DNA of 58,774 nucleotides, counting the filler, from Asterionella formosa (lineage: Eukaryota), in NCBI GenBank assembly GCA_002256025.1. It is 4 parts of 4 records of this genome, joined end to end, with 100 filler letters (N's around TTAATTAATTAA, not from the genome) between each part and the next. Parts side by side here need not be neighbours in the genome. Positions count along the whole stretch, not along the records: positions 44,174 to 58,774 come from NKIB01005894.1; 3 more parts are not named here. The stretch is one strand, 5' to 3'. The position numbers and the translations under genes are program-made. A model generated the notes under the pieces. It worked only from the letters and a program-made list of their open reading frames with translations. It made no database searches and had not been told where the DNA came from. Within the stretch, counting starts at the first letter, position 1; the number at the start of each line of letters is the position of its first letter. This document shows positions 16,944 through 52,059 of the stretch, piece by piece.

Positions 16944-17333
16944 TGCTAACATTGGTTTGCTATACCGGTATCTCAATTCGTCCTGGACGTACGTTGATTG
17001 GAAAACGTTGGAGAAGACAAGCCTATTGCGTACGATAGTCGTAGGATGTGATCTTGAAAAGTAATCCTACTAATTTGTCGGAAGACAGACTGGTATAAGG
17101 TATGTCCTCCGTATAGTATCGACCATCAGCTTTACCAGTACATACATACTATTATCCATCGTCGTCAAAGCCTAGCGTCTGTAGTGCGTACGTTCCAAAT
17201 AATAAATACTGATATCCCGGTATATAAAAAAAAATTACACTTCTACACTATCATCATTATGCATGCATACCAGTACAGTATCCTGCGTAGTTTCAAATCG
17301 ACGAGGACAAATCCAGGAGCAAATACTGCGACC

Positions 17334-20300
17334 ATGGAAATCAACTTTGGAGCACCCTCTGCACCTGCTGCTGGCTCTTCTGCTCTTTCAGGGAACAGCT
17401 TTTCCTTTGGAGGCATTAATCCATCTCCCGCAGCTGGTGTTACAGTGGCAGCGTCGACAGGAGGAGGATTCAGCTTTGGGAACGCGTCGACAACCGCGGC
17501 TCCCTCGGCCTTTGGTGGGTCGACTCCGATTCAAGCAGCTGGTTCTCCCAGTGGTTTCGGCTTTAGCAAAGCAACTCCTGGAGATTCTTATCAGTCTTCA
17601 GGAGAATCCTCTGCTGGTGCTGCTCACATGATATCAGCCGATATTCCCAAATTCGAAACCTGTTTTCCATATCTCAAAGTCAAATCCGTCGTCTCTGAAA
17701 TTCTCCCTGCCATCACACCAGACACGAGCGAAGGCTGCTTGAAAGGAGAAGAGCTCATATATCGAATGCAGATTGGTTCAGAAAATGGTGTCTTTGGCGC
17801 CCTTTTGGCCAATCCTAAACCCCTCAAATTTACACCCGCAGACCTCACTCTGAGACAAAAACTTCAGCAGAACCCACATATCAAGTTGCATGGCCAATCT
17901 GCCACTCTTACACCTGCAATGATGGAAGAAATTGAAAAGCTGTGTAGCCAATTAAGGATATCTGAGCTTGAGGCCATAGCGTTGTATGCTGAAGCTAGCA
18001 ATCCAGTGACTCGTCAAGTGCTGGAAGGTTCCCTCGAAACAAGCTTTGTTGAGAATGCTCTTGTCGACCAACGGAAAATCATACCCCTTGTGATTGGAGG
18101 AAATGTCGTCAAGGCTGCCAAGGAATTATACTTTTGGGAACGCTCTGCATTGTTGAAAGCTCTTCTTCTCTTGATTCAGTCACGTTTAGATGCTACACCC
18201 AAATCTGCTATTTTACTTGCTACCGATCCGCTTCTGAATAGCGATTTGATTGCTAACTTGATTACCTTTGTTCGTGATTCCACAACAATGATTTTCAATT
18301 TGAAAGAAGAAATGAACTCGTCATCATCGAAAGTATCCCTACAGTTTGGTCCTGTCACGAAGGCGAAGCCTGTTTTCGGTAAGGTCCTCTTGGAATTCTT
18401 GGTTCAAGAACGACAGCAAGCGACCGAGTGTCTTTTCTACTTAGGTTATCATACCCAGTGTACTGCTATAGAAGTGGCATTGTTGATTGATGTCGTCAGG
18501 GACTTGACAAATGGACTCGCCAAAGGAGATATTGGTCTTCCAATCCTAGATCCAACTCAGGATGTTCCTGATGTTTACATTAATCAAGATTTGCAGGAAC
18601 GACCTTACGGACACGGATTTACATCGGCGCTACCACCATTAAAAGAAAAGGATCCTATTGTGTGGAGAAAGGATCTCATCGAAAAAACTTGGAACAGTGG
18701 TGTACCCCAGCTTCAACAATGTGTCAGTGTATTGCTCACAACCATCTTGTGCACATTGGATGGACGCACCCAATTGTGGGACCGAAATACTCATAGCCCA
18801 AATAATGTTGGGAATGCACTCTATCTTCAGGGGGAATCATATTCTTCTTGTGACGTCTACAACATTGGGCAGATACACCGACGACTAGACCCCCAAAACG
18901 ACGCCGGAAGGGCATGGAAGCGTCAAGATATCTGGGGCCTTCTGGCTGGCGCTTACGGTGTGTTACTTGTTCCGCTCCACTCAGTTCTGGCTTCGCCAAG
19001 GGTTAGTGGACAAATATCTGTGTCCGGGGAAGCATCACTTCAGTCCTCTGATGTCAGGCGAACGGGGAAGGCATGTTTATCGGCTGCATATGAGAAGAAA
19101 TCGCTTACTTTTGCCAGATTGACTCTGATCCCGTCTTTTCAACGCCATCGCGATGGACCTGACTCTAAGTGTGACTTATACGAGTTTCTTATGTCTGTCA
19201 CTGCGGGCTTCGTGTCACACTACATCGATATCTTAGCGGCCTCTCCTGAATTGCCGGCATCACGAACGATGTGGGAGGAAAACGAAAATGAAAACTTAAA
19301 AGTGCAAAGGGACCAACAAGAGCAGCAACGCCAATTCAACCTTCAATACGGAGCTATCTATGATCCCCCACCCGCGATTCCTCTGCAAATAGACGTATTG
19401 CAGCGCCCAGACTGTATTGATGACATCGTTTTTTTGGCCTGTGTCATTTGCTCAGCAGGACCCCACTTTGCAAGTCGATTTTGGTCGACGGATGACGGTC
19501 GATTTGTTCCCAGTCGCTTGCTTTCAAAACTAGAATTCATGAAAAATCTTGATGATACTCTTGTTCCGGCCTACTTGTCCTTCCTGGCATCATTAACAAC
19601 TGCCGACACGCCCAATACTGGCTTGAACGGAGCCAATGTTGTTCATCAAATTCTATCCGAGCAACCAGCCGCTGATTCAAAACACCCAGTGACTTGGATG
19701 TCTATTCTGACGAACATACGTTGGTACGCCCGCCGATTGGACACAAGATATCAAGCAACGGCGAAGTCGATGTCGAGTTCGTCACCGCCGACGGCAGGCA
19801 GCTATGGGGAGGCATCAACGGCTTACTACTACGGTGCCGAGAACACTAGTTTCTCCGGCAATGGTGGCTATGTAGGCTCGTCGACGACTGCGATCTCAGT
19901 GAAGGATACAGATACAAAGACAACGGAATTAGGGGACGGCAACACTGCCATTCTAATGTCGCATCTCGCGGTCATTTCGCGTGTTGCTGCCGATTCACCT
20001 TCAGCCAGAGTCGCTCTTCTGTCAATGGCACTGCCTATAGACACATCAGGTGTAGCCTCACTTGATGAGGACCCAATTTTACTCGTTCTTTTCTCGCTTG
20101 CCATGGTGGGTCTGACACCGAATGTCCGCGGTGCTGTATTTGCTACTATTGCAAGCCTCCTGCGCATTGAAGGTGCCAATGCAGACGAAAAAAGAATCGT
20201 CAGGGAAATGGCACACAAAGCATGGGAACTTCTCGAGCTCAGCAACATTGTTCCAATAAGTGTCCTTGCACAGTTTCAAGCACCTGGAAGTGTCGCATCC

Positions 20301-23300
20301 ATCCAGGGAATGGCGTTTCCCCCTTCTTCCCTGGCTTTGGCGTCAACGGGAGAACGGAAGTCTATTTTACAACAAGATACAAAATTTGGAATTCTCTTCG
20401 AGATGGAGCACGTTGAAAGTCGAATGGGCTATTATCCATCAACAGAAGGCTTGCTGCAGTTAATTAATGCGCTTATTTCGTCAGTTGGCTGCCCGCAGGA
20501 CTTAGGGAAGTCCGTGCAAGGGGTTACAAGCGGAAGGACTCAGCTAGGCTGCAGTCCATATGTCGAGTACGTGATTCATTTCGTGCTACCAAGGGCTGTT
20601 GGTAGCGATTCTTCAGCTGGTCTTCTCCCCTTTCGCAGCTGCTGTGACCAGGACCGTCTCATTGCGATGGCAATGGAGATTGTTGAGAGTATCATTACAC
20701 ACTATTCAGTTCCTTCCATACGACCTGGATCTCCCATCCCTTTACTTGAAGATGATATCAAGAATCAGAAGGACGCCATCAGCACTGCTTCACAGCAATT
20801 CCGACTTCCATCTTTTGCAAACTCACTGGTGATCGAATCAGAAGAAAGTGAGGTGCAAGGCTATCGTTTAGATTTCATGCCTAGTGCGGAACATAAAAGG
20901 ACTGGTGAAGAATTATCTTCATTTCCTCGCCCCAAATCCCCCGGATATATGATCATTTCTGAAATTTTATCGATCTACTGTGGCGACCTCTTCACTTCTC
21001 TTATTCTTTCCATCGCTAGAGATGGTGCTGATATTGGGGTCCGATCCATTTGCGGCTGGGATGGATACAAAGCCGGAGTTTCCCTTGGCCTGTTTCGTGA
21101 CTTTTGTCCTTCCACTCTGAGCGCCAGGAGCAAATCGGCAGAAGGCGCCCCCGCATCACTTTCGTCCTTTCTTCAGCCGCTTTTCATTAACCTTGACGTG
21201 AAATCAAACAGAAAAATGCTCACGAATGACTCTGTCGTTTGGCGAGAATTGTCGATGTTGCGCTCGCTATTGATTCTATGCGCGGCTGCTGCCCGTGAAG
21301 ATGCATTCATTGCTGCGTCGTCAGGGTGCACGACAATTGTTCCTGTCCTGAGGTTCAAGGCAAAGATGTCATCCATTTCCACCATATCAACGCCATTGTC
21401 AAAGCTAAAGAATTTATTTATAAATTCTCAGGGCTGTAGTACGCTAAAATTCTTGCAAATTTTGACAAGACTCATTGGGTATTCATCCTGCTCGGCTGAT
21501 CAATACATTTTCACTTCAAGCTCAGCTCTCGCCTTAACGGTTTACGCTTGCAATGCCATGTCGCTGGAGGACAGTGTGAGGGTTCTTGGTGGTGCACACC
21601 TTTTTGCGTCATCTGTGTCGTATAGACTGCGCGCTTCAATTGCCCTCCACGCCGAGTCGACTGATCATGCTGAAATTGTCGACCTTATTTTTTCTTTAAT
21701 TGATCAGAGAGGAATTTCTGATGTCCTGCTTGGCTTTTACAGTCCACAGAAAGCCCCGATGCCGCGGATCCCATTGTTGGAGTCAAATGATTGTTTTGAC
21801 ACTGTGCTATCTCTCATACAAGACGAGGCTTTCGTCACAAATCCAGCGACATCACAATTCGCTGCAAAGTGCTACGAGATTATTTATCGCCAAATTTCCA
21901 GAGACGATGCTGTATCAGCAATTGTTGCGAAGAAGCTAAATGATTCTAAATTTTGGATGTCAAATTTGTGGAGATTCTTCGCTTGTCGTGAAGCTGAAGA
22001 TCGATCACTCCTAGGCGCCCTATCTGAGGAATCAGCACACATTTTGCAGTCCACGGCGTGGTTCTTAAAATCTCTTACTTCTTACATTTCGTCCACGCAA
22101 GAATTCGATTTGCTAGAGCTCGTTTCTTCGCCACACTACTTCCTTCTTCAGGCGTTTGACAACATTCCATTGACAACGACTGCTTCGGTAGCAACATATC
22201 CAAATTACTTGTTGCCGATGGTCGATGCAGCAATGATCCCACTCAAGGGACCTGTGGATGTCGTCAGCGGCTACAATGTTGTATCTCAGGCAACACTCGA
22301 GACTAAGCTACTTGATTATAATCCAGGAATGTCTGAGGCAACAATTAATAATATGTTGTCATGGGCTAAAGATTGGAATAGATCTGCTGAATGGGAATGT
22401 GCGACGTCGCATGTATCACATGCCTGCACTTTATTGCTTGAATGTTGCCTTGCTTGTATTTATGACACTCTCGCGGAACCCAGTCTACGGGAAAACACTG
22501 CCGAAGGACAAATTCAACTGCTCACTCTTGTGCTGCAAAGATTGTGCACTGTTTCTGATGCCATTGTTTTGAAATCAACAGCTAGTCATATGTGTACTTC
22601 TGTCTTGTTTCTGGTGGAAAGGTTAGTCTTGGCAAACGACCCTACTTTGGCGGGAGCAGTAGCATATTTCTTTACTTTGATGCTGAGAGCTACCTCTGGA
22701 GCTTTTAGAGAGGATACAAAATCCACAGAAAGTGCTGCCTTATTGGGTGGTGCAATGATCATTCTCTTGTCGATGCATTCCAATTTTGAAATTTCGGAGG
22801 ATCAAAATGACGAAATTGGTAAAGTTATATACTCCTTTGCAACGCTTGGAAGCGAATTAGTAAATGGAATGTGTGTTTCAAACGTTTCTGGAGAGCGAGC
22901 TGCTCTGTCTCTTATCTCGAGAACGTTTCTATCATCCCTTCTGACGCATTTCAACATTCATGAGAATCATATTTCACTGCAGCCCCTCGTGGGGAAGACA
23001 GTCATAGCTCCACTTGTTCGGGCCCTTTCTATGCTGGACGATGATGTCCCATATCTCCTTGCTCAACTTGCCACAATTGACGAAGGTGCTCTTAACTTGA
23101 TCAGATTTGGAATAATGCAGGCACTAGAGAGTGCTTGCCAGGTTTACAAGAAGAAAGAAGCTGAAATTTTGCAGGAGCTCAGCATTGGAGCCATGTCCAC
23201 TTCAGATTTGGTAGGAGTGCCCAGCTTCCTTGGTCGGCATTTTGAATTGCTTGTGACTCTTCTTGCTACCAAGGCTATCAAACCAAGTCTGCGACATGAA

Positions 23301-24281
23301 ATCGCGTCTCAGGCGCTGGTGATCTTTTCTCGTTACATGTTTCTCCTAGAGCGGGCACGACAAACATTCCCACGATATGGCGATATGTGGACAGCATTGG
23401 TCAAATGTTTGTTGCTTAGTGCATCTATTTTGTACCAGCAGGAGCCTTGCTTTGTCCGTCCAAAACATATTGTTTCGCCTGACGAGCTGTTTATCGCTTT
23501 AAAGCAGTTTGTTGCGCCTGTTGCTCTCGATATCCTGCAGCATCCGTTTCCGCAACAATTCCTTATCCCACTCCCACTCAAGCTTCGCAGTGATGATATT
23601 ATACCGCAACGCTCTCAGGATACCGTGCAATGGAACAGCAGGAGGACTTGGTGGCAAGGAATCGAGGAAGAAATGTCAGCGAAAGTACCAGATATGATTA
23701 TCATGCCGCCACCTCTATCATTTCATCGCATTGATGGGACTCAGAAAGGAAAAGGTGATTCGTGGTCGAATTACAAATACGACGTTTGTTTCGACGGAAT
23801 GCGTCTCCTTGATAAATCCTTATCGCTTCTTGCTGGAAAGCATGGGGAATCGTTTTTTCGATTGGACTGTATGGCCCTTGCCCGAGGCCTTTGCTGTCTA
23901 GTTGACTCGTTCAAAGCAATTGAAGGCCGATTGTTGCCTTTTGACTTTTTACATGTTGCTTCAACTACCTCCTCGAATTTGGATGGGATGGAAATCGACG
24001 ACGACAAAGACGGTCAGTTTCGAATCAAAATGGAAAGAGCCTATCTTGTACGGCTACTTCCACTTTTTGAGCGATGCATTGAAAAGCTTCTCCTACTCAT
24101 TAACAACCAATTCAAAGGTATTAAAAGCTCAATGGGTTCAAGTGAGTGGCGGCGCTTTGCAGAGGCAATTCATGTTGTTCTGGACAGGTTTGATTGGGCA
24201 AGCCTGAATATTGGAAAAGATGATTATCTTGCTAAATCGATCACCAATCTTAGAGCATTTGCAAACGAAACCGAAAAATAA
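17334..24281 (+). CDS. NUP205: Nucleoporin Nup205/Nup192-like scaffold protein with an FG-rich N-terminal extension
   Basis: About 2315-aa helical, Leu-rich ORF. GILFEMEHVESRMGYYPSTEGLLQLI and SPYVEYV resemble conserved Nup205 blocks. Five FG motifs occur in the first ~80 aa. Confidence 0.78.
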   Translation: MEINFGAPSAPAAGSSALSGNSFSFGGINPSPAAGVTVAASTGGGFSFGNASTTAAPSAFGGSTPIQAAGSPSGFGFSKATPGDSYQSSGESSAGAAHMISADIPKFETCFPYLKVKSVVSEILPAITPDTSEGCLKGEELIYRMQIGSENGVFGALLANPKPLKFTPADLTLRQKLQQNPHIKLHGQSATLTPAMMEEIEKLCSQLRISELEAIALYAEASNPVTRQVLEGSLETSFVENALVDQRKIIPLVIGGNVVKAAKELYFWERSALLKALLLLIQSRLDATPKSAILLATDPLLNSDLIANLITFVRDSTTMIFNLKEEMNSSSSKVSLQFGPVTKAKPVFGKVLLEFLVQERQQATECLFYLGYHTQCTAIEVALLIDVVRDLTNGLAKGDIGLPILDPTQDVPDVYINQDLQERPYGHGFTSALPPLKEKDPIVWRKDLIEKTWNSGVPQLQQCVSVLLTTILCTLDGRTQLWDRNTHSPNNVGNALYLQGESYSSCDVYNIGQIHRRLDPQNDAGRAWKRQDIWGLLAGAYGVLLVPLHSVLASPRVSGQISVSGEASLQSSDVRRTGKACLSAAYEKKSLTFARLTLIPSFQRHRDGPDSKCDLYEFLMSVTAGFVSHYIDILAASPELPASRTMWEENENENLKVQRDQQEQQRQFNLQYGAIYDPPPAIPLQIDVLQRPDCIDDIVFLACVICSAGPHFASRFWSTDDGRFVPSRLLSKLEFMKNLDDTLVPAYLSFLASLTTADTPNTGLNGANVVHQILSEQPAADSKHPVTWMSILTNIRWYARRLDTRYQATAKSMSSSSPPTAGSYGEASTAYYYGAENTSFSGNGGYVGSSTTAISVKDTDTKTTELGDGNTAILMSHLAVISRVAADSPSARVALLSMALPIDTSGVASLDEDPILLVLFSLAMVGLTPNVRGAVFATIASLLRIEGANADEKRIVREMAHKAWELLELSNIVPISVLAQFQAPGSVASIQGMAFPPSSLALASTGERKSILQQDTKFGILFEMEHVESRMGYYPSTEGLLQLINALISSVGCPQDLGKSVQGVTSGRTQLGCSPYVEYVIHFVLPRAVGSDSSAGLLPFRSCCDQDRLIAMAMEIVESIITHYSVPSIRPGSPIPLLEDDIKNQKDAISTASQQFRLPSFANSLVIESEESEVQGYRLDFMPSAEHKRTGEELSSFPRPKSPGYMIISEILSIYCGDLFTSLILSIARDGADIGVRSICGWDGYKAGVSLGLFRDFCPSTLSARSKSAEGAPASLSSFLQPLFINLDVKSNRKMLTNDSVVWRELSMLRSLLILCAAAAREDAFIAASSGCTTIVPVLRFKAKMSSISTISTPLSKLKNLFINSQGCSTLKFLQILTRLIGYSSCSADQYIFTSSSALALTVYACNAMSLEDSVRVLGGAHLFASSVSYRLRASIALHAESTDHAEIVDLIFSLIDQRGISDVLLGFYSPQKAPMPRIPLLESNDCFDTVLSLIQDEAFVTNPATSQFAAKCYEIIYRQISRDDAVSAIVAKKLNDSKFWMSNLWRFFACREAEDRSLLGALSEESAHILQSTAWFLKSLTSYISSTQEFDLLELVSSPHYFLLQAFDNIPLTTTASVATYPNYLLPMVDAAMIPLKGPVDVVSGYNVVSQATLETKLLDYNPGMSEATINNMLSWAKDWNRSAEWECATSHVSHACTLLLECCLACIYDTLAEPSLRENTAEGQIQLLTLVLQRLCTVSDAIVLKSTASHMCTSVLFLVERLVLANDPTLAGAVAYFFTLMLRATSGAFREDTKSTESAALLGGAMIILLSMHSNFEISEDQNDEIGKVIYSFATLGSELVNGMCVSNVSGERAALSLISRTFLSSLLTHFNIHENHISLQPLVGKTVIAPLVRALSMLDDDVPYLLAQLATIDEGALNLIRFGIMQALESACQVYKKKEAEILQELSIGAMSTSDLVGVPSFLGRHFELLVTLLATKAIKPSLRHEIASQALVIFSRYMFLLERARQTFPRYGDMWTALVKCLLLSASILYQQEPCFVRPKHIVSPDELFIALKQFVAPVALDILQHPFPQQFLIPLPLKLRSDDIIPQRSQDTVQWNSRRTWWQGIEEEMSAKVPDMIIMPPPLSFHRIDGTQKGKGDSWSNYKYDVCFDGMRLLDKSLSLLAGKHGESFFRLDCMALARGLCCLVDSFKAIEGRLLPFDFLHVASTTSSNLDGMEIDDDKDGQFRIKMERAYLVRLLPLFERCIEKLLLLINNQFKGIKSSMGSSEWRRFAEAIHVVLDRFDWASLNIGKDDYLAKSITNLRAFANETEK

Positions 24282-45831: not shown

Positions 45832-46044
45832 TGTTACAGTATTACCTTTTGATAGATCTATATTCTTAGACAAAGAAGACTATAGATAGAGACGTTCGTT
45901 TCTCTTTCCATTTTTATATTCTTATTGTGAGTTTACTAATCTAGTTTAGGTTTTTCTGATCATAGGTTTTTAACCATGATCATTCATTTTGTAACTATCG
46001 GTCTTCCGAAATAGCTTATATCGTCCGGCTCATTATAGGCGGAG
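45832..46044. repeat. Possible older LTR interrupted by the Copia C insertion (continues 51612-51621)
   Basis: Removing the Copia element rejoins a ~218-bp unit bounded by TGTTAC...GTAACA. No matching TSD was found. Confidence 0.3.
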
Positions 46045-46327
46045 CGTTGAATATGTGTAATGGACATGTTGGTAATGGTTACACCAATTACACCGATACT
46101 GACAATAACCGCACTGACCATGCCGGCTTGCAAACTAACGAACAAGGCTGGACTGCGGTTGAACCAAGAAAGATCAGAACTAGAAATAGAGTGTTTGGTA
46201 CCAGCGAAATTGGCTCACTTTAATTAATTATTCGGTTTTATAAACAATACCCTCCCAGTGAGCTCTCTCCATCGGATTCTTTGTTTCATGGACATGGAGA
46301 TGTATTGAGAACATTGTGGTTTCAACA
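46045..46327 (+). repeat. 5' LTR of Copia C (283 bp)
   Basis: About 15 substitutions and one indel versus the 3' LTR by manual comparison; the first base is C instead of T. Confidence 0.95.
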
Positions 46328-49212
46328 TAATTAAATTAAAGTAAACAAGATGGACAAGGTGAAAACAGAAGGTGGGGATGCCGCCACGAAGGTTGACAAG
46401 GACTCTGGCATTGATGCCAAGAAAAGAGGTCGCTTCAACTTCGGAAATAACACCAGGCATCCCGGACACCAGCCGCAACGAAATTCGAAGGCAAATGCAA
46501 TGAACTAAAAGGAAATGTGTATGACTGCTCGGATATGAAGCAAGTAGATCTATTTGCGAAGACGACAAAGGAGATCGCAGGCTTTGTAGGGCGCACCTAC
46601 AAATATGGTGGTGACATTTGATTGGTGGTTGATAACCTTGAGATGGTCAGCATCACTACACCAAAGGATCCACCAAAGCATTCTACCCGCACAGACAAAC
46701 GAATCTGGGAGAAAGAAGTGGATGAGTTCGTAAAGAGGTCAACATACCTCAAAGAAAACATTAAGACACTATACTCCCTTGTATGGGGGCAATGCACGGA
46801 CATAATGCGCCAGAAGGTTGAGGCCATGGACATATATGAGACAATGTCTAGGGAAGGTTATGGTCTGACTCTCCTTAAAGTTATCAAGGATGTCAACTAT
46901 AACTTCCAAAGCCAGAAATACCTGCCTCACTCCCTCTACAAATCCAAGTGCAGGTTCTATATGTGTATTCAGGGATGAAACATGACAACACAGGTCTACC
47001 TGGAACACTTTCAGAACATGTTGGATGTTATCAATCACAGCGGAGGGACCATTGCTGGTGACTCTGGAATCGAGACCACGATTCTGAATGGAAAGACAAT
47101 CAATAAGGCGAACATGAATGACCAACAGCTAACTGAACTCAAGTCAGAGGTACTCGAGCAATTCACAGCGGTAGCATTCCTAGTAGGAGCTGATCGTGTA
47201 CGCTACAGCCATCTGGTTGAAAATATGGAAAACGACTTTTTACAAGGATGGAACAACTACCCCAAGACTGTCAGTGGAGCCTACCACCTACTAACAACCT
47301 GGAAGCAGGATCCACGACATGCGCTCCGCAAAGTAGAGGCAGTTGGCGATGGTGTATCCTTTTACAATGTGGATGACGAAGACGGAACAACACTCAACAA
47401 TAACAGCAAGAATGGTGCGCGGAAAAGGCCAAAAGGCAAGGCAAACATCATGTGCCACCGCTGCCAAAAGAAGGGGCACTATGCCAAGGAATGTGAGGAG
47501 CCTGCACCTGTCCCTAGGAATTCGACTACTAGCAATCCTCCCACAGCTGAAACATCAACCCAGTCCGCCACGTGCATGAGCGGGAATTCGAGGAAAATGT
47601 CCACTTCCGATTTTTAAATCAAGGAGGAGTGAGTCTAAAGATTGGGCCCGATGGAAGGCTACCACGTACATGGATACTGTTAGACAACCAGTCAACAGTT
47701 GATTTGTTCCGGCATTAACTCTTACGCAACATCCGTATCCACACCAATAAGATGGATATCCACTGCAATGCTGGTATAATCAGCACCCAACTCATAGGAG
47801 ACCTTCATGGACACGGAACAGTATGGTACAACCCAAAGGGGATCGCGAACATCCTGTCCCTTGCAAGTGTCAAAGAGCAGGGATACAGGGTAAAATTTAA
47901 TAGCAGCCAGGGCAATGCATTCCATGTTCACAAACCCAATGGAACCTGTTGAGTGTTCAAAGAATCAATGAAAGGCCTATATTACATGGATACAAAGGAT
48001 AGCTCTGGAGTCACACTTATCAATACAGTCGACAATAACAGTACTAGCTACTCCCAACGTGACTACTCACAAGCTGTGCTAGCTCAAAAGATACAGAAGA
48101 TTATTGGACGTCCCAGTACCTGCACATTCATCAAGATTTTCGAGAACAACCTGTTCCCAAACTGCCCAATCACATGCGATGACATTATAGCGGCAGAACG
48201 AACCTTTGGACCAGAGGTGGGTTCGCTAAAAGGGAAGACAGTACATCGTAGTTCAGTGCCAGTCAGGACTAGCTCTACCAACATACCCGCCAGGGTTATC
48301 GATAAATACCATATGGTGACACTTGCAGGTGACATCATGTTTGTCAAGAGTATGCCCTTCCTCGCTACCATATCAAGACACATCAAATTTAGCACATATG
48401 AGCTCCTTGAAAACCAACGGCTACCAACAATAATCAAATCCATTGACAATGTGCGCAAGCTCTACAAAAAATGAGGATTCCACATCGAAACAATCATCAT
48501 GGATGGACAATTCGATGGACTGCGGGCCAACTTAGCCGAAATGGGAATAACACTCAACAGTTCCGCAAATGACGAGCATGTCCCTGAGGTTGAACGCCAC
48601 ATTCGCACACTTAAAGAAAGAGTGCGATCTGTCTACAACATGTTACCATTTGCCAAAATGCCAGCCCATATGATTATCGAGCTTGTCTATTATTGTGGGT
48701 TCTGGCTAAATAGTTTTCCAGCCCACGGTGGAATATCTCCAACTCTCAGCCCACAGACTATAATTGCAGGCATGACTATTGATTACAACCATCACTGCAA
48801 ACTTGAGTTTGGAACATATGCAAAAGTCCATGAGGAACACGATAACAGCATGACTGCATGCACGGTTGGAGCCATTGCCCTGCGCCCAACAGGAAATCAC
48901 CAGGGAGGGCACTTTTTTTTCAGTCTAAGCACAGGTCGCATCCTAAACCGCAACCACTGGACTGTGCTGCCAATGCCCACTGATGTCATCGATCGTGTTC
49001 ACAAGATGTCACGTCGGGATGAAGCTGAAATCACCCTATACTTTGCTACAAAACGCGGTCCAATTGGAGATGAGATACAAGACAATGTTGACGATGACAC
49101 CTTTGATCATCCAGCCAACAATGACAACACTGACGAGAATGACGACGATGATGCCGCCCCCGTTCACATCGTAGGAGTGAATGATGAACCAAAAGATGAC
49201 AATAGCGATGTA

Positions 49213-49470
49213 GAAGGTGGAGACGAATACAACCCCGATATCATCGAAAATGAACCACAAGGTGGTGACGAATACAACCCCGATATCATCGAAAATGAAC
49301 CACACGAAGGGCATGAAGGGAATGACAAAGACAATGAACCACACGAAGGACATGAAGGGAACGACGACGACAATCTCGAAGCCACCGATATCATCGAAAA
49401 TGAACCACATGAAGGGAATGACGAAGACAATGAACCACACTAAAGACAAGAAGGGAACGACAAAAAGGGA
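49213..49470 (+). repeat. Coding tandem repeats in the integrase-RT spacer
   Basis: GGDEYNPDIIENEP x2 (45-bp period) and several HEG(HEG)ND-DNEP units. Confidence 0.85.
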
Positions 49471-51327
49471 ACGACAAAGACAATCCCGAAGCCACCAAAC
49501 CAGGCAACAGACTAAACGAAAACACTGCCAAACCCAACAATGAAGAAGAAGTCGACGAGGAACCCACTAGTATCGAACAACGGATTCAACAAATGAACGC
49601 CGCATATGGCCATAGACAGCACCAATATGATCTACGGGCTCGGAAGCCTTGCGAATACAGCCACCTGCATGCCACATTGAAAGGCATTTTCATGACCCAA
49701 CACAACGTAAAGAAAGGGCTACAAGTATTCGGTGAGGCCGGTGTGGAGGCTGTGCTTAAGGAATTGAACCAATTACATGAACGTGGAGTACTCGAACCTA
49801 CAAAAACTTTGTCACACGAACAGCGCAGGGAGGCGCTGCAATACCTTATGTTTCTGAAACAAAAACGCAACGGAACAATGAAGGGTCATGGCTGTGCTGA
49901 TGGTCGGAAGCAACTTCAGCACACAATCAAGGAAGAAGCTAGCTCTCCAACTATTGCAATTGAATCAGTCATGTTGTCATGCGTGGTTGATGCACTAGAA
50001 GAGCGAGACGTAGCCACAGTTGATATTCCTGGTGCATTCATGCAAGCTGACATGGATGACCTAGTCCATATGAAGCTTGAAGCGGAGCTCCTGGTGCGCA
50101 TTGACCCTCAACTATATCGCCAACATATGCAAATCGAACGAGTAAAACAAGTACTATATGTTGAACTAAGGCAGGCGCTGTATGGCACCCTCAAGGCGGC
50201 ACTACTTTTCTGGAGACGACTCAGCTCCCAGCTTGGCAAGTGGGGATTTGATCTAAACCCATATGACTCATATGTGATGAACAAAGTCATTGACGGGAAG
50301 CAGTGCACAGTATTATGGCATGTTGATGATCTCAAAATATCGCACGTGGATGCAGCTGTGGTCAGCAAGGTAATTGACCTACTCAAGACTGAAATCAGGG
50401 CCGCAGCACCACTCACAAAAACGCGCGGAAAGATTCATGAATTTCTTGGAATGAATATCAACTTCAATGAAAAAGGGAACGTTCAATACACAATGATTGA
50501 CTACATTAAAGAGATGATGAATGACTTACCACCAGACATGTATGGAATTCCACCAAATCCGGCTGGAAAGCACCTATTCGATGTTAATGACAAAACTACT
50601 AAACTTGATGTAAAAACGGCCGAGCTATACCACCACAAGACTGCTAAGCTGCTGTTCCTATGCAAACGAGCACGTCCTGACATACAAACTGCAGTCGCAT
50701 TCCTATGCACTAGGGTTAAAAGTCCCGACAAAGATGACTACAAAAAGTTGACCCACACCATAAGGTACCTATGTGGATCAATAAACATGCCCCTCACCCT
50801 GGAGGCAAACAACACCCGAATTATCAAATGGTGGGGGGATGCGTCATTTGCGGTTCACCCAGACATGCGAAGTCATACAGAGGGTGCCATGTCAAGGGGC
50901 AAAGGCATCATTTATGGGACATCCACATGACAGAAGCTAAACACAAAAAGCTCAACTGAGGGGGAACTGGTTGGTGTCAATGATATCATGCCCCAGGTGT
51001 TATGGACCAGAGATTTTCTGGAGGCACAGGGATATGATGTACAGGAATCTGTTATATATCAAGATAACCAAAGTACTATGCTGCTAGCAATGAATGGAAC
51101 AGCTTCAAGCAGCCGTCGAACACGCCATGTTAATATTCGATATTTCTTTGTGGCAGACCGGGTCGCATCAGGGGAAGTCAAGATAGAACTCTGTCCAACT
51201 GCGCAAATGCTAGGCGATTATTTTGCAAAGCCCTTGCAAGGGAGTCTATTCCGCACGATGCAAAACATGATCATGAATGTTAATCCTACATCAGACCACA
51301 CTTATGTCATGCAGGATTATAGGATTG

Positions 51328-51611
51328 TGTTGAATATGTGTAACAGACATGTTGGTAACGGTTACACCAATTACACCGATACTGACAATAACCGCACCGA
51401 CCACGCCGGCGTGCAAACTAACGAACAAGGCTGAACTGCGGTTGAACCAAGAAAGATCAGGACTAGAAATACAGTGTTTGGTACCAGCGAAATTGGCTCA
51501 CTTTAATTTAATTATTCGGTTTTATAAACAATACCCTCCCAGTGTGCTCACTCCATCGGATTCGTTTTTTCATGGACACGGAGATGTATTGAGAACATTG
51601 TGGTTTCAACA
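51328..51611 (+). repeat. 3' LTR of Copia C (284 bp)
   Basis: TGTTGAA...TTCAACA, preceded by the PPT-position sequence CAGGATTATAGGATTG. Confidence 0.95.
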
Positions 51612-52059
51612 CGGAGTAACAAGGTATAATGTGTGGTTGATGAGAGCTTGGTACATCAAAGATGACTCATTCGAATCGTTTGACTCCGAGTCATAACTAC
51701 GTAGATGAGCTCACTTTAACATCATGATAGTTGTCCTACTTGCCAAGACCATTTGATTTTGGATCAGATGTGGAGGGATGTAAGGATAGCATCTTCTGTT
51801 AATAATAATAAACTTGAGAAAGCAAAAGGAGTCATCTATAATTTAGTTACGGAAATATTCTATCATTAATAGAAATTGTTATTGATTTGCTACATATTTA
51901 GTCAAAAAATGTTATCATCAATCCCCTGGACTTACTCATCATGCATTTTCGGACACTTTTATGCAAAAAGTGTCGGTGAACAACATTAATACAACCTTCT
52001 GGGCGAGGATATGCTGGGATCTTGGAAGAGCAGAGAAACCATGGATGTCATGTTCCTTT

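What the first reader, a model, noticed from the sequence alone, without database searches (positions are those of the whole stretch)
46217..46342. Copia element with no tRNA PBS but a 15-nt PBS complementary to its own predicted transcript 5' end: candidate self-priming retrotransposon
Seen: directly after the 5' LTR (46328-46342) the sequence is TAATTAAATTAAAGT, not the TGG... expected for a tRNA 3'-CCA primer, and the gag ATG follows at 46350. Its exact reverse complement, ACTTTAATTTAATTA, lies inside the 3' LTR at 51500-51514. The 5' LTR copy from 46217 has lost one T, the only indel between the LTRs. Complementarity stops exactly at the A of GCTC-A-CTT, an initiator-like TCA motif. The ~110 nt in between can fold (CAATAC 46245-50 with GTATTG 46302-07; TCTCCAT 46266-72 with ATGGAGA 46294-300), bringing the two segments together. 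Established: S. pombe Tf1 (Ty3/Gypsy) primes minus-strand synthesis with the first 11 nt of its own RNA annealed to the PBS and released by RNase H, and self-priming has been proposed for a few plant Copia lineages. Inference: this diatom Copia lineage is tRNA-independent and self-priming. I am not aware of this being described for diatom Copia elements, but I could not check the literature.
Basis: partly seen in the sequence, partly recalled or inferred. Interest (0 to 1): 0.85.

Follow-up and report, generated by a model that had tools for sequence, protein, structure and literature searches.

The report
Self-priming Copia retrotransposon clade in diatoms
A dead copy of a diatom jumping gene has, right after its left repeat, a short stretch that pairs with the predicted start of its own RNA. 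Dozens of relatives keep the same pairing with different letters, so this lineage very likely starts copying itself without borrowing a host tRNA.

Summary
A decayed 5,567-bp Ty1/copia element lies at 46045-51611, with LTRs 94.7% alike and a 5-bp target duplication. The 16 nt at 46327-46342, starting at the last LTR base, are the exact reverse complement of 51500-51515 in the 3' LTR (2 matches in the window, 0.09 expected).

I fetched 78 metagenome loci by polyprotein similarity alone. A scan for perfect inverted repeats of 13 nt or more found 39, in 37 sources. All 39 have the same layout: one arm at the LTR end (CAACA) and the other next to a conserved TCA. There are 26 different primer sequences, and shuffles gave 0-3 hits.

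In an alignment of 24 leaders, 14 of 15 pairs show changes on both sides that keep the pair. None of the 39 has TGG after the LTR. In 24 of 39 the first paired base is the +1 of the published diatom initiator-like motif TCAH+1W.

Three further helices in R-U5 co-vary.

The best reading is Tf1-type self-priming across a deep diatom Copia clade. The transcription start and the RNase H cut are not shown. Self-priming is already predicted for plant TAR Copia elements, so this is a new member of a known kind.

The parts
46040..46044 (+). Target-site duplication CGGAG, left copy
   Evidence: Empty-site joints 46039->51612 with 5 shared letters in 20 contigs of DNA run X1.
46045..46327 (+). 5' LTR, 283 bp. 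Starts CG (mutated TG) and ends CAACA.
   Evidence: 94.7% identity to the 3' LTR.
46215..46219 (+). Initiator-like TCACT (TCAH+1W). The predicted +1 is C46218.
   Evidence: Motif taken from PMC4686930. In 24 of 39 related leaders the H(+1) of this motif is the first paired base. The start itself is not mapped.
46217..46231 (+). Self-primer segment in the 5' LTR. This copy has decayed: one T was lost after insertion.
   Evidence: The same-family locus L001 keeps the intact 16-mer.
46234..46252 (+). Leader helix P2, a small hairpin (46234-46237 with 46249-46252)
   Evidence: RNAalifold consensus, mapped to the window. 93.8% of cells paired.
46253..46320 (+). Leader helix P3, U5-IR-like (46253-46260 with 46312-46320). 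It encloses the P4/P5 hairpin (46270-46272 with 46300-46302; 46277-46285 with 46291-46298).
   Evidence: P3: 7 of 8 pairs changed on both sides, 89.6% paired. P5: 7 of 8 pairs, 95.8% paired.
46327..46342 (+). Primer-binding site. It is 16 nt, begins at the last base of the LTR, and is exactly complementary to 51500-51515.
   Evidence: (I5). The same position and pairing occur in 39 of 39 inverted repeats found in relatives.
46350..51327 (+). Decayed gag-pol region. The gag ATG is at 46350, a CCHC zinc knuckle lies in ORF 46982-47617, and the Copia-type RT (RVT_2) lies in ORF 49593-50930. The frame is broken into at least 7 ORFs.
51321..51327 (+). Polypurine-tract-like AGGATTG directly before the 3' LTR. 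Relatives have AGGAGTG.
   Evidence: 13 of 17 loci examined have AGGAGTG directly before TGTTG. It is read in frame as the conserved HRSVL at the polyprotein end (consensus).
51328..51611 (+). 3' LTR, 284 bp, TG...CA
51500..51515 (+). Intact copy of the self-primer segment in the 3' LTR. It follows TCA at 51498-51500, and the predicted +1 is C51501.
51612..51616 (+). Target-site duplication CGGAG, right copy

Best explanation
The element is a fossil member of a deep clade of diatom Ty1/copia retrotransposons that prime minus-strand DNA synthesis with the 5' end of their own RNA, as Tf1 does.

Shown:
- The 15-16 nt that begin at or next to a conserved TCA in the LTR are complementary to the 15-16 nt that begin at the last base of the 5' LTR.
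- This pairing is kept through many changes on both sides across the clade.
- The ~96-157 nt between the arms hold three further co-varying helices, so the leader closes into a multi-branched fold.

Inferred:
- Transcription starts at the base after TCA, the diatom Inr-like TCAH+1W.
- The RNA 5' end folds back onto the PBS.
- The element's RNase H cuts at the 3' end of the paired segment, just before the conserved CTGGTTT in the window's subgroup. This leaves a 3'-OH on the U that pairs with the terminal A of U5.
- Reverse transcriptase extends this primer through U5-R.
- Plus-strand strong-stop synthesis copies the primer, so the PBS is rewritten from the primer in every cycle. That would explain why the pairing is perfect in all intact copies and decays only in dead ones such as this one.
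For: 1. Exact 16-nt complementarity in the window, far above chance.

2. Unbiased sample of relatives. The 78 loci were fetched by polyprotein patterns only. A scan of 323,815 nt for perfect inverted repeats of 13 nt or more with a 50-280 nt loop found 39, in 37 of 79 sources. Every one is at the LTR end: 35 begin at CAAC|A, and 4 begin one or two bases later. There are 26 distinct primer sequences. Block shuffles gave 0-3 hits in each of 20 replicates.

3. All 32 sources that hold the gag N-terminus have the pairing. It is perfect in 28. L038 has one G-U and L025 has two. L004 has decayed. The window has its 1-nt deletion.

4. All 13 loci with an ORF of 1,500 aa or more have perfect pairing.

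5. Covariation on 24 leaders: 95.5% of cells paired against 64.8% in shuffles (0 of 500 reach it) and 38-52% when the partner is slid. 14 of 15 pairs change on both sides. RNAalifold finds this helix by itself.

6. 0 of 39 PBSs start with TGG, as a tRNA 3'-CCA primer would need.

7. In 24 of 39 the first paired base is the H(+1) of TCAH+1W, and in 34 of 39 it lies within -1 to +4 (motif from PMC4686930).

8. A conserved leader fold with a helix next to the PBS: 32 of 38 pairs changed on both sides, 92.9% paired against 70.7%. Single-sequence folds of 4 leaders all close with the primer-PBS helix in both the MFE and the centroid structure.

9. The RT-RNase H tree puts the leader-bearing loci in two deep, well-supported clades (98/97) with long branches, and primers differ between nearly all terminal lineages.
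Against: - No transcription start was mapped. The RNA runs are contigs, carry no 5'-end information, and may contain DNA.
- No host genome is held and no tRNA gene lies in the window or in 48 loci. Complementarity to a host tRNA, tRNA half or other small RNA could therefore not be tested directly.
- In 15 of 39 leaders the pairing does not start exactly at the motif's +1. In 4 loci of one family it runs 4 nt further upstream, through CTCA.
- Tf1's second flanking duplex, which uses sequence downstream of the PBS, was not found by RNAalifold.
- Cleavage by RNase H and use of the fragment as primer are inferred by analogy only.
- The sequences are related, so cell counts overstate the number of independent events.
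- The consensus fold was derived from the same alignment on which it was counted.
- The window's own leader folds no better than shuffles (z = -0.97), as expected for a decayed copy.
Confidence: 0.75

Rival explanations
1. The primer-PBS helix is a structural element of the leader, used for packaging, dimerisation, translation control or RNA stability. Reverse transcription would be primed by something else, such as a tRNA fragment that binds elsewhere.
For: Only the pairing and the fold are shown, not the priming. Retroelement leaders often carry conserved structure for other purposes.
Against: The helix begins exactly at the last base of U5 in 35 of 39 cases and within two bases in the other 4. 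That is where minus-strand synthesis must start to rebuild the LTR. No TGG-type PBS follows the LTR in any of the 39. No other inverted repeat or conserved candidate site was found in 323,815 nt.
Confidence: 0.1
2. A variant of self-priming. The LTR-internal arm that acts is not the RNA's 5' end. It is an internal or 3'-LTR copy, because transcription starts elsewhere, or the primer is taken in trans from a second RNA.
For: The start is not mapped. In one family the pairing extends 4 nt upstream of the predicted +1 (L044, L046, L047, L049). The arm is present in both LTRs.
Against: The arm abuts the diatom Inr-like motif in 24 of 39 leaders, and the motif lies within -1 to +4 in 34 of 39. Arm spacing is tight: 27 of 39 loops are 95-109 nt. 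The stretch between the arms holds co-varying helices that would join the two arms within one leader.
Confidence: 0.1
3. The PBS is complementary to a host tRNA, a tRNA half or another small RNA. The match to the LTR would be secondary.
For: Half-tRNA priming is known in some Copia lineages (PMC6317226, passages). Host tRNAs could not be examined.
Against: There are 26 different PBS partners among 37 loci, mostly AT-rich, and none starts with TGG. A conserved host RNA cannot match such varied sequences, yet each PBS matches its own LTR perfectly.
Confidence: 0.04
4. A chance match between two AT-rich segments.
For: The motif is AT-rich.
Against:: 0.09 expected, and 0 of 100 shuffles reach the observed 2; the same layout in 37 sources, including GC-containing arms; covariation.
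Confidence: 0.01

Closest known systems
Tf1/sushi group of Ty3/gypsy chromoviruses (S. pombe Tf1, Tf2; vertebrate sushi; plant Tcn1)
   Same: No tRNA-type PBS. A segment at the predicted RNA 5' end, inside the LTR, pairs with the PBS at the LTR border. Further duplexes between U5 and PBS-adjacent sequence give a closed multi-helix leader, called a 'pretzel' in PMC10085805 (passages read).
   Different: - Different superfamily: Copia-type RT (RVT_2) lying late in the polyprotein.
- The paired segment is 15-16 nt (range 13-19), against the 11 nt I recall for Tf1.
- The PBS includes the last LTR base.
- Only one PBS-adjacent flanking helix (P3) was found, plus two hairpins.
- There are no experiments for this clade, whereas Tf1 is experimentally established (Levin 1995/1996 and Lin & Levin 1997/1998, seen only as reference-list titles).
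Plant Ty1/copia TAR lineage (Houba, Osr-1)
   Same: Copia elements predicted, from sequence alone, to be self-priming across a whole lineage: 89% of 203 elements (PMC6317226, passages and supplement file 3).
   Different: The hosts are land plants, not diatoms. No sequences were available here, so neither the relatedness of the RTs nor the likeness of the leaders could be compared. Common descent versus convergence remains open.
Ordinary tRNA-primed Copia elements (tRNA-Met 3' end; half-tRNA-Met or half-tRNA-Ile in Osser, Bryco and Bianca)
   Same: LTR structure TG...CA, 5-bp target duplication, gag-pol polyprotein, PBS position next to the 5' LTR.
   Different: Their PBS matches a conserved host tRNA and so is conserved between families. 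Here it varies freely and follows the element's own LTR.
Fungal GalEa Copia elements with a 'Conserved Hairpin Site' in place of a PBS
   Same: Copia elements without a tRNA-type PBS and with a structured site at the PBS position (PMC5445492, passages).
   Different: That site is a short conserved local palindrome. The authors state that they found no U5 sequence complementary to it. Here the site is variable and pairs with the LTR 71-157 nt upstream.

Membership tests
Ty1/copia LTR retrotransposons | Copia-type reverse transcriptase (Pfam RVT_2) | tested here: met
   window ORF 49593-50930, E = 5.2e-14, above the curated cut-off; relatives P0006 and P0019.
Ty1/copia LTR retrotransposons | Domain order gag-PR-INT-RT-RH, with integrase before RT | tested here: inconclusive
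   RT sits at residues 1204-1430 of 1753, with ~800 residues between the zinc knuckle and RT and ~320 after it. This fits the Copia order, but Pfam did not detect protease or integrase.
Ty1/copia LTR retrotransposons | LTRs with TG...CA ends and a 5-bp target-site duplication | tested here: met
   Empty-site joints.
Self-priming LTR retrotransposons (Tf1-type mechanism) | PBS at the 5' LTR border complementary to a segment inside the LTR, kept by covariation | tested here: met
Self-priming LTR retrotransposons (Tf1-type mechanism) | [quoted passage not shown] | tested here: inconclusive
   Motif evidence only: TCAH+1W with +1 as the first paired base in 24 of 39. RNA contigs gave no 5' ends.
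Self-priming LTR retrotransposons (Tf1-type mechanism) | No PBS complementary to a tRNA | tested here: inconclusive
   0 of 39 begin with TGG and the PBSs vary widely. No host tRNA set could be searched.
Self-priming LTR retrotransposons (Tf1-type mechanism) | Additional duplexes flanking the primer-PBS duplex (three-duplex 'pretzel', U5-IR-like stem) | tested here: inconclusive
   One co-varying helix ends 6 nt before the PBS (P3), and there are two hairpins. No duplex using sequence downstream of the PBS was found.
Self-priming LTR retrotransposons (Tf1-type mechanism) | RNase H cut of the RNA duplex that frees the primer; primer found on minus-strand cDNA | not testable with these tools
   Needs virus-like-particle cDNA or in vitro assays.
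Tf1/sushi group (Ty3/gypsy chromoviruses) | Gypsy-type RT, integrase after RNase H, chromodomain | tested here: not met
   The RT is RVT_2 and lies near the C-terminus. No chromodomain hit.
Plant TAR lineage of Ty1/copia | Placement inside TAR in an RT/RH/INT phylogeny | not tested
CoDi-like Copia elements of diatoms | Placement with CoDi groups in an RT phylogeny | not tested
   The host is a diatom and the only named relatives are from Fragilaria crotonensis. No CoDi reference sequences were at hand.

The most novel reading that the evidence does not exclude
Self-priming is the ancestral and general way of starting reverse transcription in a deep, species-rich clade of diatom Copia elements. 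It arose independently of both Tf1/sushi and plant TAR, and it uses its own four-helix leader. Because the PBS is rewritten from the capped primer in each cycle, the outer edge of the pairing would record the transcription start in genomic DNA. Pipelines that demand a tRNA-type PBS would have been discarding this whole clade from diatom genome annotations.
Probability: 0.45. Interest if true: 0.65.

Novelty: new member of a known kind. Interest (0 to 1): 0.58.

Why it matters
It extends tRNA-independent self-priming to a large Copia clade in diatoms. That mechanism is proven only for Tf1-type Gypsy elements and predicted for one plant Copia lineage. The comparative evidence here is unusually clean.

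Three things follow:
- It gives a testable model: a start site, a primer of 15-16 nt, a cut site and a leader fold.
- It bears on whether self-priming arose several times or is old.
- It has a practical side. Diatom repeat annotation that keeps only LTR candidates with a PBS found by LTRdigest would tend to lose these elements if that step uses tRNA matching. I know LTRdigest to work by tRNA matching; the passage read in PMC7466962 describes the filter but does not say so.

In my six full-text searches no paper describes this for diatom elements. The founding CoDi paper does not mention a primer-binding site or tRNA at all.

Tried and rejected
- Whole-genome search: no genome is held for this window. 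Family copies and host tRNAs could not be taken from the host. The window holds only this one copy.
- tRNA test: ARAGORN found 0 tRNA genes in the window and 0 in 48 loci. The direct test against host tRNAs was therefore not possible.
- RNA evidence: I laid three RNA runs (X20, X24, X23) and one DNA run (X1), all as contigs, on 45900-51800 at 85% likeness.
  - X20 contigs cover the inner region with 5-10% differences.
  - X24 gave 4 pieces and X23 gave 7, the latter mostly on the flanks.
  - No starts or ends were reported (table 6 is empty).
  - This shows neither transcription nor a start site.
- Contig ends: no locus ends in poly(A), and only L021 starts near the primer arm, 15 nt upstream. 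No transcript ends could be read.
- My first scan covered only 450 nt upstream of gag. It found the repeat in 16 of 32 sources and suggested a negative clade. That was an artefact: those elements have an extra ORF between PBS and gag, and the wider scan found the repeat in them.
- Tree: 32 leader-bearing loci. L005, L016, L048, L071, L074, the window, L004 and L025 dropped out because the RT-RH match was under 300 aa or held stops.
- Earlier notes of this scan: nothing relevant.
- Papers PMC1369541 and PMC1563812 (Lin & Levin 1997; Atwood-Moore 2006) are not held. Tf1 details come from PMC10085805 and from recall.
- Polyadenylation site and the R/U5 border: no consistent signal by eye, not pursued.
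Full report
**What is in the window**

The finding sits in the 5' leader of an LTR retrotransposon.
- The 5' LTR is 46045-46327 and the 3' LTR is 51328-51611.
- The LTRs are 94.7% identical with a single 1-nt indel.
- They carry TGTTG...CAACA ends. The first T of the 5' LTR is mutated to C.
- They are flanked by the 5-bp duplication CGGAG at 46040-46044 and 51612-51616.
- Contigs of a DNA run join 46039 directly to 51612 with 5 shared letters (20 contigs). The insertion borders are therefore independently fixed.

The inner region is broken into at least seven ORFs. It holds a CCHC zinc knuckle and a Copia-type reverse transcriptase, RVT_2, at E = 5.2e-14. This copy is dead. The rest of the window encodes ordinary eukaryotic genes. 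A TYW3/TYW2 protein from the window has only diatoms among its named relatives: Seminavis, Nitzschia, Pseudo-nitzschia, Fistulifera, Amphora, Cylindrotheca and Attheya, at 55-60% identity. The host is a diatom.

**The observation**

The 15 nt after the 5' LTR (46328-46342) are the exact reverse complement of 51500-51514 in the 3' LTR. With the last LTR base included, the match is 16 nt (I5). The 16-mer, allowing up to 2 mismatches, occurs only at these two places in the window. Shuffles expect 0.09, and 0 of 100 shuffles reached 2. The 5' LTR copy has lost one T. L001, a metagenome locus of the same family, keeps the intact 16-mer in its leader, so the loss happened after insertion.

**Relatives**

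The RT ORF has more than a thousand relatives. The best are 70% identical, and the only named ones are from the diatom Fragilaria crotonensis. I aligned 24 full-length polyproteins (A1) and fetched 78 metagenome loci using two peptide patterns in the polyprotein. The sample was therefore chosen without regard to the leader. Many contigs are circular-looking assemblies with one collapsed LTR, which gives RH-LTR-PBS-gag in one piece.

I scanned all 78 loci plus the window segment (323,815 nt) for perfect inverted repeats of 13 nt or more with a 50-280 nt loop. The scan gave 39 repeats in 37 of 79 sources.
- All 39 have the same layout. The downstream arm begins at the last A of the LTR end CAACA in 35 cases, and one or two bases later in 4.
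- The upstream arm lies next to a conserved TCA: directly after it in 25 cases.
- No inverted repeat of this size occurs anywhere else in these sequences.
- Block shuffles give 0-3 per replicate over 20 replicates.
- Arms are 13-19 nt (23 of 39 are 15 nt). Loops are 71-157 nt (27 of 39 are 95-109 nt).
- There are 26 distinct upstream arms, several with G and C.

Of the 32 sources in which the gag N-terminus could be located, 28 have a perfect repeat.
- L038 has one G-U pair and L025 has two.
- L004 has decayed.
- The window has its 1-nt deletion.

The other 38 loci lack the 5' part of the element. All 13 loci with an ORF of 1,500 aa or more have perfect pairing.

**Covariation**

On an alignment of 24 leaders (A2) the 15-pair helix is formed in 95.5% of cells. 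Shuffled partners give 64.8% (0 of 500 shuffles reach the observed value) and slid partners give 38-52%. 14 of 15 pairs change on both sides. Two rows, L021 and L035, are out of register in that alignment and count as broken. RNAalifold predicts this helix, and only this helix, on A2.

An RT-RNase H tree of 32 leader-bearing loci shows two deep clades (support 98/97) with terminal branches of 0.2-1.3 changes per site. Primers differ between nearly all terminal lineages. Five leader-bearing loci and the window were left out because their match was short or held stops.

**Not a tRNA site**

None of the 39 PBSs starts with TGG. They vary freely between families while each matches its own LTR. A conserved host tRNA or tRNA half cannot account for that. 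The direct test against host tRNAs could not be run.

**Where the RNA probably starts**

A paper on diatom promoters reports CAY+1A at mapped Phaeodactylum starts and proposes the Inr-like motif TCAH+1W (PMC4686930, passages read). In 24 of 39 leaders this motif sits so that its +1 is the first paired base. In 34 of 39 the +1 lies within -1 to +4 of that base.

In the window the motif is TCACT at 46215-46219 and 51498-51502. The extra A-T pair in this family is what one expects by chance one time in four. This is motif evidence only. The RNA runs I laid are contigs without end information.

**The rest of the leader**

RNAalifold on 12 leaders of the window's subgroup (A3) gives, inside the primer-PBS helix, the following helices in window numbering:
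- a small hairpin, 46234-37 with 46249-52;
- a helix that ends 6 nt before the PBS, 46253-60 with 46312-20;
- a hairpin, 46270-72 with 46300-02 and 46277-85 with 46291-98.

Over all 38 pairs, 92.9% of cells pair against 70.7% in shuffles, and 32 pairs change on both sides. One caveat applies: the structure was derived from the same alignment on which it was counted.

A second subgroup of seven loci, which share one primer sequence, folds similarly but with little variation. Single-sequence folds of four leaders all close with the primer-PBS helix in both the MFE and the centroid structure. Their z-scores are -6.5, -3.5, -3.2 and, for the decayed window copy, -0.97.

The helix next to the PBS recalls the U5-IR-like duplex of Tf1's three-duplex 'pretzel' (PMC10085805, passages). 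A duplex using sequence downstream of the PBS was not found.

**Other cis elements**

Directly before the LTR start TGTTG, 13 of 17 loci examined have AGGAGTG. Three of the other four had too little upstream sequence. The window has AGGATTG at 51321-51327. Read in frame, this polypurine-like site and the LTR start encode the nearly invariant HRSVL at the polyprotein end.

**Mechanism**

Shown: the pairing, its position at the U5 border, its covariation, and the conserved fold.

Inferred from the established Tf1 and retroviral schemes:
- The capped 5' end pairs with the PBS.
- RNase H cuts after the paired segment.
- The 3'-OH is extended through U5-R.
- After the strand transfers, plus-strand strong-stop synthesis copies the primer, so the PBS is rewritten from the primer in each round.

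That last step explains why intact copies are perfect whatever their sequence, and why only fossils such as this one, L038, L025 and L004 show defects.

**Comparison and novelty**

Self-priming is established for Tf1 and inferred for the Tf1/sushi group (PMC10085805, passages). It is predicted for the plant Copia lineage TAR (89% of 203 elements) and for Tcn1 (83% of 1,500 elements) (PMC6317226, passages and supplement file 3). Fungal GalEa Copia elements lack a PBS but have a different, local hairpin (PMC5445492, passages).

For diatom elements I found nothing.
- The CoDi paper (PMC2806351) has no occurrence of primer binding, tRNA, PPT or self-priming. Its one 'PBS' is a buffer.
- Two papers that treat CoDi elements do not discuss their priming.
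- Searches pairing self-priming, primer binding site or PBS with diatom or CoDi gave no relevant paper. These searches cover open-access full text only.

I therefore file this as a new member of a known kind. It works like Tf1. It is not a member of the Tf1/sushi group, because its RT is Copia-type. Its relation to TAR and to the CoDi groups is untested.

**Verdict**

Confidence in self-priming is 0.75. Interest is 0.58.

Noticed in passing
window 45957-46039 and 51612-51721: The Copia element is inserted in a short repeat of about 190 bp with very high copy number. Summed contig depth is about 8e5 in DNA run X1, against about 1e4 over the element. Many contigs carry the uninterrupted form, and loose ends cluster at 45956-45958 and 51721. 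This may be a MITE- or SINE-like element. Its right end carries GAGCTCACTTTAAC, which resembles the LTR motif around the predicted start (D10).
   Followed up: partly
L013, L015, L016, L018, L019, L020, L022, L061, L062, L071 (between PBS and gag): One subgroup shares the primer CTCTTTTTACGAAAT. It has 350-500 nt of coding-looking sequence between the PBS and the gag ATG, ending in a conserved ...NGTKIVRAPKNLIL-like peptide and a stop. This is a possible extra upstream ORF.
   Followed up: no
window 49214-49496: Tandem 39-57-nt repeats encode an acidic, Asp/Glu/Asn-rich stretch between the integrase region and RT (D3-D7). The same region is a variable poly-D stretch in the consensus of relatives.
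   Followed up: no
P0006, P0019 and the window ORFs 47953-49443: Pfam finds neither protease nor integrase in these polyproteins, although about 800 residues lie between the zinc knuckle and RT. Both domains appear too divergent for the current models.
   Followed up: no
window 17259-24281 (+): A 2,340-aa uninterrupted ORF without any Pfam match at E <= 1e-4.
   Followed up: no
L049 7848-8034 and L054 7317-7436: In two loci the primer-PBS pair also follows the second LTR. The direct repeat runs past the LTR end into the PBS, which suggests tandem elements sharing an LTR.
   Followed up: no
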